Below, one piece after another: positions 26,901-29,900 of a stretch of DNA of 64,000 bases. The position numbers and the translations under genes are program-made. The notes beneath the pieces were generated by a model. The model was not told where the DNA came from. It saw only the letters and a program-made list of their open reading frames with translations, and ran no database searches. Origin of the DNA: Eledone cirrhosa (taxonomy: Eukaryota); contig OZ024762.1 of assembly GCA_964016885.1 (NCBI GenBank), forward strand, positions 21,142,001 through 21,206,000, read 5' to 3'. How positions within the stretch are numbered: the first letter of the stretch is position 1; every line of letters starts with the position of its first letter.

Positions 26901-29900
26901 ATCAACAAATGCTTCATATAACTGTTCTTCTATCAACGCCTCTTCAAGATGTTTCATTAAATGCCAAATCAGGACAGCTTCAGATGTAGAGCGTCGTCTC
27001 CCAGAGCCAGGATTGGTTGGCGTCAATCCTAAACTACCACAGCCATGACCTCCACCAATATCTGTTGTGGAAAAAGAAAAAAACAAAATATATATACAAA
27101 GCTCAATGTATGTAGAGAATTATTATCATCATCATCATTTTATGTCCGCTTTTCCCTGCTTGCAAGGGTGGGATGGGAACTGATTCTGGCTTGATTTCTA
27201 CAGCTGGATGCCCTTCCTAACACCAACCTCATTTACAGGGAGTGCTGGGTGCTTTTTTTTCCGTGGCGCCTACACGTCCACTTTACAGTGTGGGCTAGGT
27301 GCTTTTCTGCCGTGGCACCTCCACGACCACTTTGCAGTCCCTATCATCTCATTTTTACAGCTGAGTAAACTGGAGCAATGTGAAATAAAGTGTCTTGCTC
27401 AAGGAAACAACACATCATCCGGTCTGAGAATTGAACTCACAACCTTTCGATTGCAAGGCCAATGCTCTAACCACTAAGCCATGTGCCTCCATAAATTATA
27501 TATAATAATAACAAAAAATTAACTCACCATCTAGCATGTATTGTTCAGAAGGAAGATAGGAAAAGATTAATCCATGAAAGTTTGACTCTTTAGCCCCAGG
27601 GTCTAACAACCAACTAGCAATCTTAGGGTCCATGAACGTATATCTGGGTGCCAGAGATATGGTAGCGGTGATAGCACGGTAGGTTGACTTGGCATCGAAT
27701 GCCACAACTGTAACATCTGCATGACTGTGGGCAGTAAAGATCTTTCTAAGTGCCTGCAGCCTGTCCTCAATGGAAAGGGCAGTGTCAAGTGGTGGGGGAG
27801 CCAGTGAGTCATCTGGTTCATCTGTTGAAGAAGCATAGGAAAATAACAACAACAACAACAGCAGCAACAACAACAACAACAACAACAACTGGTCCTGATT
27901 TAAGCACAAGGCCAACAATTTGGGGGGAGGGTAAAGTAGGTTAAATCGACCCCAGTGCATTACTGATACTTTATTTTATCAACCCTATAAGGATGAAAGG
28001 TAAAGCTAATCTTGTTGGAATTTGAACTCGGAATGAAAAGGGCCGTAAGTGTGTGTCGCAAAGCATGGTGTCCGGTGGTCTACTAATACTGACAATCTGT
28101 GGCCCATCATCATCATCAAGGCCAGCAATTACCCCAGTACGTGACTGGTACTTTATTTTATCGGCCCTGTAAGGATGAAAGGCAAAGTAATACTCTGTGG
28201 GATTTGAACTCAGAACTGAAAGGGCCGTAACTTGATGCTGCAAGGCAGCATGTTGTCTGACTCTCTACCATTACTGCCAATCCACCACCCTAATAATAAT
28301 TGTTTCTACTATTAGCACAAGGCCAGCAATTACCCAGTACATTACTGGTACTTTAATAATAATAATACTAACTGTTTCTACTTTTGGCACAAGGCCAACA
28401 ATTTGGCAATTTGAAGGGAAGGGGAAGTTGATTAGATCAACCCCAGTAGTTAGCTGGTACTTTATTTTATTGACCCCAGGAGGATGAAAGGTAAAGAAGA
28501 CTGTAAATAAATAACTGCAATGCATTTAAGCTGATGCACTAACGCTACTGCCAATCCACTGACCCCCTGAACAAGTTTGGCATATATACCCCTAGATATA
28601 GTCAACAGAAGACAGAGTCACCTGCTGGAATCAAATTCACATAAGCCATTTGCCACAAGGACATGAGACGAAGGAGACATTACAAAGACAAAATATAGAA
28701 ATGAGGAAAAAAAAAAGGGTAACAAATATGCAAATTAGGTATACATATCAATCAATCAATAGGTTGCACTGCTTGAATGGATTCCCTTGACTTTGTTGTC
28801 ATCCAATTCCATTGGTCATCATATTTGGCAGGTCAAAGAGATTGCAGTTTATCTCATCACAAATCTGCTTGATATATGTCTTGGCTTGTTGTCCTATGAT
28901 AACTCTTCCTTGGGTGTAGGCTCCCACAAATGGAACTTCAATAACAATTTCGTCTTTAGCTCTCTAGCAATGCTCTGTGAATCTGACTACACTCTTTGAT
29001 GATGTCTGATACTGGATGAAGGTTCTCACTCATTGGTCAGATGATTTCTCCAAGTGACATTCAAAGCCACTCTTAACATGTGAGTGTAGGCTCCATCTAA
29101 TGTTCTTTCCAGTTTTGCGGTAAGGGTCCAAGCTGAGCAGCCATACAATAGAAGAGGTAACAGTTGTTTGAAAGGTATGCATACTGTATAATTATATAAG
29201 GCATTCAGTCCTCCTGGTACAGAAAAACGAATACTTAAGACTAAATAGGGAACAATACAGATCCACAATCACCCTGACCACCAAGGGTGAGTGCTCTCCC
29301 TCAACTGTCTTTGTCAGACCTACAGCAAAAGATAGGGGAAGACTCATTCTCGTTTGTCATTTTTGCTAATTTCTCCTTTGATAAATTTACTTTTATTGAT
29401 CACAAAATGTTTTCTGCTAAACCATTACAGGATGTTAAGAGTTAAAAACTAAAGTCTTAACTCTATCACTGTAAATTTTATCAATGATTTGTCTAATAAT
29501 AAAGATACTATACAAATTTGAATTAACAAACCTATTTTTTTAGTTATTTTCTGTGAAATCATTACAGGATGTTAAGAGTTAAAAACTAAAGCCCTAACTC
29601 TAGAACTGCAAATTTTCACAAGGATCTGTCAAATAATAAAGACATTTAAATTAACAAACCTATCTTTTTAAAGATAACTTTCTGCTAAACAATTACAGGA
29701 TGTTAAGAGTTGCTTTATCAATTTGGCAGGCCTTACATTTAATGAGAGAGAAATCATAGAATCAGCATTTCGTGATGGAATCCTGAAAGTTTTGGTTGCC
29801 ACATCAATCCTGTCTTTTGGTATCAACTTACAGTTAATTTAAAAAGTAAAATATAAAAATTTAATTCATCTTGATCAATTTTTATCCAAACTTTTTGTTT

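What the first reader, a model, noticed from the sequence alone, without database searches (positions are those of the whole stretch)
29400..29831. Antisense copy of POLQ exon 10 and its acceptor inside the same pre-mRNA
Seen: ~330 nt of intron 9 plus ~100 nt of exon 10 (helicase motif V region) are duplicated in inverted orientation, starting ~77 nt after the exon-17 donor; ~88% identity in the exonic part. Inference: in the pre-mRNA it can pair with the exon-10 3' splice site and coding sequence across 17 kb. It could act as an editing-complementary sequence (coleoid cephalopods recode heavily through ADAR), mask the acceptor, or bring the exon-17 donor near the exon-10/11 acceptors for back-splicing. 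It may equally be a neutral duplication.
Basis: partly seen in the sequence, partly recalled or inferred. Interest (0 to 1): 0.75.

Follow-up and report, generated by a model that had tools for sequence, protein, structure and literature searches.

The report
Inverted POLQ exon fragment in intron
An intron of the DNA-repair gene POLQ in a cephalopod-like animal holds a backwards copy of an earlier exon's start and splice acceptor that is predicted to pair with the original in the unspliced RNA, but it is most likely an old DNA-copying scar, and the little RNA data at hand show normal splicing and no editing.

Summary
The inverted copy is real: 29407-29831 (+) matches 47096-46679 at 81.8% over 434 columns, 76 nt after the exon-17 donor. 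Its 'intron' part is not unique sequence. It is tandem left halves of a 215-bp TTAA-flanked MITE with thousands of candidate copies. Only about 122 nt (acceptor plus 102 nt of exon) are POLQ-specific, and this is the only extra copy in the genome. Overall decay looks neutral (exon 12/102 vs MITE part 41/269 differences, p=0.51). One spliced, low-depth run shows the exon included, exon 17 spliced forward and no majority A-to-I change; contigs hide minor forms. One fact favours function: the 105 nt over the acceptor are 96% identical, with only 1-2 changes of the copy's own against 8 in the last 35 nt (scan p 0.001-0.01). Gene conversion could also give this. Presence of the copy in a related species was not resolved. 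Verdict: likely a local templated inverted duplication, able to form a duplex, with no function shown. The scan has noted the same kind of thing before in other genomes (tolloid, RIM-BP, VAX2, GSK3B; unchecked notes).

The parts
29710..29831 (+). Gene-specific arm of the copy: 20 nt of acceptor region plus the first 102 nt of POLQ exon 10, antisense to the pre-mRNA. Ungapped against 46800-46679, 13 differences in 122 nt.
   Evidence: only extra copy in the genome
29692..29796 (+). Best-kept core of the copy (MITE terminal repeat, acceptor, first 67 exon nt): 4 differences in 105 nt, all G-U compatible; only 1-2 are the copy's own changes
29407..29709 (-). MITE-derived arm of the copy: two left halves (29578-29709, 29442-29578) and a 35-nt third start (29407-29441); no right half
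46568..46780 (-). POLQ source exon ('exon 10'), 213 nt, same intron phase at both ends, covering Helicase_C profile positions 49-110
46801..47130 (+). Tandem array of 2.5 MITE left halves at the 3' end of 'intron 9', starting 20 nt before the exon; the terminal repeat is also present in organism B
29908..30035 (-). POLQ 'exon 17'; its donor lies 76 nt from the copy and is spliced forward to the exon ending at 27821
45993..46140 (-). POLQ 'exon 11', joined to exon 10 in run X4 (GT-AG intron of 427 nt)
17724..53906 (-). POLQ coding region as far as homology shows it (about 23 exons, helicase to polymerase)

Best explanation
A 425-nt piece spanning a MITE array, the splice acceptor and the first 102 nt of a POLQ helicase exon sits inverted in an intron 17 kb downstream, likely copied there once by template switching during DNA repair or replication, and likely tolerated without a selected function. 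Shown: the copy, its single-copy status, its MITE content, and forward splicing in one low-depth run. Inferred: the event is about as old as the split from organism B or older. Also inferred: the 506-nt upstream intron is usually removed before the copy is transcribed 17 kb later, so the acceptor is rarely masked. Any duplex would then be short-lived and limited to the exon part, giving at most low-level, unselected editing or circles. The well-kept core is taken to reflect an old gene-conversion tract, error-rich synthesis near the junction, or chance.
For: Exon part 12/102 vs MITE part 41/269 differences, Fisher p=0.51. The copy's own branch is 7-10% in the MITE part and 9-10 of 122 in the flank. 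The exon piece ends in mid-exon, lies outside the MITE's terminal repeat, and has no flanking target duplication or poly(A). Neither of the two listed source-lineage changes (46728, 46695) is compensated in the copy, and none of the 13 differences places a C opposite an exonic A. 17 of the 29 adenosines in the copied exon part would change an amino acid if edited, in a motif 70-84% identical across the 120 homologues listed, so efficient editing should be harmful (inference). Spliced contigs of X4 join exon 10 to 11 and exons 16-17-18. The pre-mRNA holds 96 inverted matches of 100 nt or more, and five score higher than this one. In Octopus vulgaris most editing is in introns and 3'UTRs, editing very rarely alters splice sites, and circRNAs are low (PMC9699675, passages).
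Against: Decay is uneven: 1-2 copy-specific changes in the first 87 nt against 8 in the last 35 (scan p 0.001-0.011). P(<=2 in 105 nt) is 0.004-0.105 for assumed rates of 9-5%; the boundary was chosen after the fact. The copy keeps organism B's state at 46728 and at one or both of 46779 and 46797, which argues against recent conversion from today's exon. It is the only 1 of 96 inverted matches that touches an exon. Such events are not common here: of 5 inverted two-copy candidates at 1-30 kb in 864 kb, the other 4 were multi-copy repeats. The RNA evidence is contigs from one run at depth 3-8, tissue unknown.
Confidence: 0.62

Rival explanations
1. The copy arose by accident but its core is now kept by selection as a long-range RNA partner. 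It would pair with the exon-10 acceptor and first 67 nt in transcripts that still hold intron 9, causing in-frame skipping of the 213-nt exon (a helicase lacking its last motifs), ADAR recoding of the motif, or back-splicing from the exon-17 donor to the exon-11 acceptor.
For: 105-nt core 96% identical with all four differences G-U compatible. Only 1-2 copy-specific changes there, no more than the coding exon gained itself. Predicted duplex -187 kcal/mol against -21 and -16 for the separate arms. The arms sit next to the acceptor and 76 nt from the donor, the layout linked to circles and editing in human long-range pairs (PMC8052449, passages). The exon length is a multiple of three.
Against: No skipping, circle or majority editing in X4 contigs (low power). 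Over the whole flank 7 of 13 differences are wobble-compatible, no enrichment, and the core's edge is defined by the first mismatch. 8 of 62 repeat pairs of like identity in this window, this one included, also have a 105-column window with 4 or fewer differences. No compensatory change was found. The 17-kb spread exceeds the 10-kb limit used in PMC8052449, though that paper notes longer functional cases.
Confidence: 0.2
2. The MITE's transposase, or recombination between MITE copies, moved the flank: the element carried the acceptor and exon start with it, or a break in an intron-17 MITE was repaired from the intron-9 array and copied on into the exon.
For: About 70% of the copy is MITE. A TTAA lies 2 nt beyond the right junction. 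The copy's units are nearest to source unit S1 and carry rearranged variants.
Against: The terminal repeat lies inside the copied piece, not at its ends. There is no right terminal repeat, no right half near 29400 and no TTAA at the left junction. TTAA occurs 3.8-6.1 times per kb here.
Confidence: 0.13
3. The copy is a retro-inserted piece of unspliced POLQ RNA, or an assembly error.
For: An A-rich stretch follows the exon end on the + strand, and a young LINE is abundant in this genome.
Against: The A-rich stretch is only about 60% A, with no target duplication and no poly(A) signal before the break. 18% divergence with gaps, and contigs across the right junction, exclude a misassembly.
Confidence: 0.05

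Closest known systems
Templated insertions by replication or repair template switching (FoSTeS/MMBIR; PMC5120786, passages read) and partial or internal gene duplicates (PMC3449122, passages read)
   Same: A few hundred bases copied from the same chromosome, inverted, ending in mid-exon, with no target-site duplication or tail.
   Different: Here the event is old and decayed, the empty site is unknown so junction microhomology cannot be read, and the piece landed in the donor's own transcription unit.
Editing-complementary sequences of ADAR recoding sites (GRIA2 Q/R type; recalled)
   Same: Intronic sequence complementary to a coding exon on the same pre-mRNA, in a lineage with abundant recoding (PMC8382921, passages).
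   Different: 17 kb away, a near-perfect long helix with no A-C mismatch at an exonic A, derived from a duplication, no edited site shown and no conservation shown.
Long-range complementary pairs that loop out exons or bracket circles (PCCRs, PMC8052449, passages read)
   Same: Stable predicted pairing, arms beside an acceptor and a donor.
   Different: Those pairs are defined by cross-species conservation and compensatory change, neither shown here; one arm here is coding sequence itself.
Lymnaea antiNOS-2 (PMC3537157, passages read)
   Same: Molluscan antisense sequence made by duplication plus DNA inversion of a coding gene.
   Different: antiNOS is a separate transcribed pseudogene acting in trans on mature mRNA; this copy would act in cis and is spliced out.
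piggyBac-type TTAA MITEs (family features recalled)
   Same: The intronic arm comes from a 215-bp non-coding element with 16-bp terminal inverted repeats and TTAA on both sides.
   Different: Only tandem left halves remain at this locus; the autonomous partner was not sought.

Membership tests
ADAR editing-complementary sequence | Complementary to the exon on the same pre-mRNA, stable duplex predicted | tested here: met
   Both arms lie in the POLQ minus-strand transcript; duplex -152 kcal/mol for the exon part alone
ADAR editing-complementary sequence | A-to-G differences RNA vs DNA in the paired exon | tested here: inconclusive
   0 T>C (+ strand) changes in X4 contigs over exons 10-11 at depth 3.4-4.5; contigs drop minor variants; X4 is another sample than the DNA runs
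ADAR editing-complementary sequence | Editing is lost when the element is removed | not testable with these tools
   Needs a minigene or antisense block
Conserved long-range pair (PCCR type) | Compensatory substitutions | tested here: not met
   Source-lineage changes at 46728 and 46695 are not matched in the copy; only two species, few sites
Conserved long-range pair (PCCR type) | Both arms conserved across species | tested here: inconclusive
   No organism-B contig was seen on the copy, but B's exon 17 was also poorly covered
circRNA-promoting flanking inverted repeats | Reverse-complementary arms in the introns flanking the circularised exons | tested here: met
   Arms in intron 9 and intron 17; other repeat pairs also have an arm in intron 17
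circRNA-promoting flanking inverted repeats | Back-splice junction exists | tested here: inconclusive
   X4 contig runs unbroken through exons 16-17-18 at depth 7.6; library type unknown
Templated insertion (template switch) | Donor nearby on the same chromosome, no target duplication, no tail | tested here: met
Templated insertion (template switch) | Microhomology or blunt ends at junctions relative to the empty site | not testable with these tools
   No empty-site sequence from a relative was obtained
Transposon gene capture (Pack-type) | Gene fragment enclosed by the element's two termini and a target duplication | tested here: not met
   Fragment lies outside the left terminal repeat; no right terminus
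piggyBac-type MITE (intronic arm only) | Short non-coding element, terminal inverted repeats, TTAA on both sides, many copies | tested here: met
   30 aligned copies: 215 bp, 16-bp repeats, TTAA columns at 70% or more on both sides; 5169 first-look candidates, 40 scored
piggyBac-type MITE (intronic arm only) | Autonomous piggyBac transposase element with the same ends | not tested
   No search was run

The most novel reading that the evidence does not exclude
A duplication accident gave POLQ its own long-range RNA switch. A 105-bp helix, kept by selection since before two species split, closes over 17 kb onto the helicase exon's acceptor and lets the animal make a helicase-truncated, recoded or circular POLQ RNA on demand. 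It would be a traceable birth of an editing-complementary or exon-masking element in a cephalopod.
Probability: 0.15. Interest if true: 0.75.

Novelty: new member of a known kind. Interest (0 to 1): 0.33.

Why it matters
If neutral, it is an ordinary example of how repeat-rich genomes gain exon-antisense sequence inside genes. If the core is under selection, it would address a stated gap: cephalopod editing studies largely ignore introns and may miss rare long-range partners (PMC8891338, passage). It would also give a dated origin for such a partner and a way to uncouple POLQ's helicase from its polymerase by splicing. The locus is cheap to test with amplicon sequencing.

Tried and rejected
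Sequencing-run search: no holder is on record as RNA; X4 is treated as RNA only because its contigs are spliced. Lack of cover of the copy by X4 or by organism B is not used as evidence. A tree of 52 MITE units was star-like and did not group the copy's units with the source's; only distances (C2 nearest to S1, 0.117 against 0.149 next; C1 nearest to C2 and S1) and shared rare variants support common descent. The base-rate control in 864 kb first suggested frequent local duplications (12 pairs at 1-30 kb, 5 inverted), but all 4 other inverted candidates proved multi-copy; the 7 direct ones were not checked. Rfam: 0 matches at E<=0.1 in 28500-30500. Local folding of 46560-47300 is unremarkable (z=-0.48). 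POLQ terms gave 0 hits in the supplements held for PMC8382921 (1 file), PMC4384741 (1 file) and PMC9699675 (3 files; file 2 not searched). These are not full editing catalogues, so published editing of POLQ remains unchecked. Two paper searches returned nothing; none of the 10 searches named POLQ, so I make no claim that the locus is unpublished. Look-ups of earlier findings near this place and for cephalopod terms returned nothing.

Full report
Observation. Self-BLAST of the window finds 29407-29831 (+) against 47096-46679 (-) at 81.8% over 434 columns. Homology with cuttlefish, limpet and bivalve proteins places a POLQ gene on the minus strand from about 53906 to 17724, and the stricter genome-wide look shows no second such gene (weak matches may be missing). 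The best named hit is cuttlefish POLQ at 84%, so a cephalopod is likely; I did not identify the species. The source exon is 46780-46568, 213 nt, with an AG acceptor and GT donor, and matches Helicase_C positions 49-110. Calling its content motifs V and VI is from recall. The copy stops 76 nt inside the intron that follows the exon at 30035-29908.

Anatomy. A genome search with the copy gave 52 matches from 2481 candidates (40 scored), all but the source confined to the intronic part. Aligning 30 copies defines a 215-bp element with terminal inverted repeats CTCTTAACATCCTGTA and TTAA on both sides. This is a MITE of piggyBac type by recalled family features. One copy (L036) is followed directly by a right half, as expected for nested insertion at the internal TTAA. 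The source intron ends in 2.5 tandem left halves (46801-47130); the copy has 2.25. The gene-specific part is thus 122 nt, and it has exactly one extra copy in the genome (2 of 2 candidates). The exon fragment lies outside the terminal repeat, and there is no right terminus, target duplication or tail, so capture by the transposon is not supported.

Age and decay. Organism B (run X5, about 90-94% identical in exons) has the same MITE end beside the acceptor, since one 524-nt contig covers terminal repeat, acceptor and exon. In the copied exon part the copy sides with this species at 4 sites where the species differ and with B at 2 listed sites. Arithmetic on B's record (9 differences from the copy, 8 of them certain) shows that the copy also sides with B at two or more of 29691, 29713 and 29731. 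The copy therefore looks like the common ancestor plus its own changes, and is inferred to be about as old as the split or older. Overall divergence is no lower in the exon (12/102) than in the MITE part (41/269; p=0.51), and the copy's branch is 7-10% in the MITE part. That is the neutral pattern. Against it, the changes are unevenly placed: 1-2 copy-specific changes in 29710-29796 and 8 in 29797-29831 (scan p 0.001-0.011; 0.02 before B's hidden sites were inferred). Selection on a duplex, an old conversion tract, or error-rich synthesis near the junction could each explain this. As a control, 8 of 62 repeat pairs of like length and identity in the window, this one included, have an equally clean 105-column window, though most of those seem to belong to one repeat family.

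Pairing. RNAduplex gives -152 kcal/mol for the exon part, -187 with the acceptor and -488 for the whole, far above self-folding. The acceptor lies in an unbroken helix of about 86 bp with four G-U pairs. Of the 13 differences, 7 give G-U and 6 give mismatches; none is an A-C mismatch at an exonic A. Editing of 17 of the 29 paired adenosines would change an amino acid. The pre-mRNA has 96 inverted matches of 100 nt or more, 30 of them at 80% or more; this one ranks sixth and is the only one touching an exon. Intron 9 is about 506 nt, and its acceptor is transcribed 17 kb before the copy. Masking would need unusually late splicing; this is inference from co-transcriptional splicing and was not measured.

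RNA evidence. No run is on record as RNA, but X4's contigs are spliced. One 1489-nt contig (depth 7.6) joins exons 16, 17 and 18 without a break and with 0 differences. A 305-nt contig (depth 3.4) joins exon 10 to exon 11 across a GT-AG intron, and a 337-nt contig (depth 4.5) enters exon 10 at its acceptor with 198 further letters upstream that I could not see. The one listed difference in exon 10 is A>G on the + strand at 46737, a synonymous T>C on the mRNA, most simply an allele. So normal, unedited mRNA exists. Minor skipping, circles or editing cannot be excluded, because contigs drop rare forms and the tissue is unknown.

How common. In 864 kb of this genome, 12 pairs at 1-30 kb looked two-copy, 5 of them inverted. 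The 4 inverted ones other than this were all multi-copy repeats on genome-wide search, so a unique inverted local duplicate is uncommon here. Earlier notes of this scan describe the same kind of intronic inverted exon fragment in other genomes; these are unchecked and serve only as leads.

Literature seen. Passages of PMC3449122 (partial duplicates are abundant), PMC5120786 (templated and inverted insertions by template switching), PMC8052449 (long-range pairs, circles, editing; 10-kb limit, longer cases noted), PMC9699675 (octopus editing mostly intronic and 3'UTR, rarely alters splice sites, circRNAs low), PMC8382921 (recoding higher in neural genes), PMC8891338 (introns largely ignored in coleoid editing studies) and PMC3537157 (antiNOS by inversion). 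For PMC4384741 I saw the listing and a supplement search only. Full editing-site catalogues were not available to me and may bear on whether this POLQ exon is edited in coleoids.

Verdict. Best explanation: a local templated inverted duplication without selected function (0.62). A selected RNA duplex remains possible (0.2) on the strength of the conserved core. New member of a known kind; interest 0.33.

Noticed in passing
window 15094-16416 and 40852-42183: Two 98.5% identical copies of a very young, 5'-truncated LINE; many near-identical copies genome-wide (2082 candidates, 40 scored, all about 100%). Its 330-aa frame has the end of a reverse transcriptase followed by a PHD-finger-like domain. 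RTE-like by recall. One copy lies in a POLQ intron.
   Followed up: partly
window 27120-27489 vs 43797-44165: 97% identical 370-nt inverted repeat pair in POLQ introns, a stronger predicted duplex (-722 kcal/mol) than the exon copy; it brackets six exons.
   Followed up: partly
L005, L003, L004, L008, L010: The same MITE forms tandem left-half arrays at other loci, one a perfect recent duplication (L005), running from the left terminal repeat to the internal TTAA.
   Followed up: partly
window 29797-29831: Eight copy-specific changes cluster in the last 35 nt of the copy, four of them C>T on one strand and two at one CpG. Unexplained.
   Followed up: partly
window 30657-33320: A single open 888-codon frame forms the large central POLQ exon.
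   Followed up: no
window 4296-4538 and 13472-13710: Inverted 80% pair that belongs to a family arrayed on contig C27 at about 1.7-kb spacing; the local partner is the best hit.
   Followed up: partly
L088 2456-2715 and 5898-6192: Long inverted arms about 3.5 kb apart, repeated as pairs at several places, all on contig C20: likely a transposon with long terminal repeats or a chromosome-restricted gene-family unit.
   Followed up: no
window 6301-8077, 26279-26800, 36462-37388, 44469-45149, 54912-55507: Minisatellite arrays of 34, 48 and 68 bp; the 48-bp unit recurs inside dispersed repeats.
   Followed up: no
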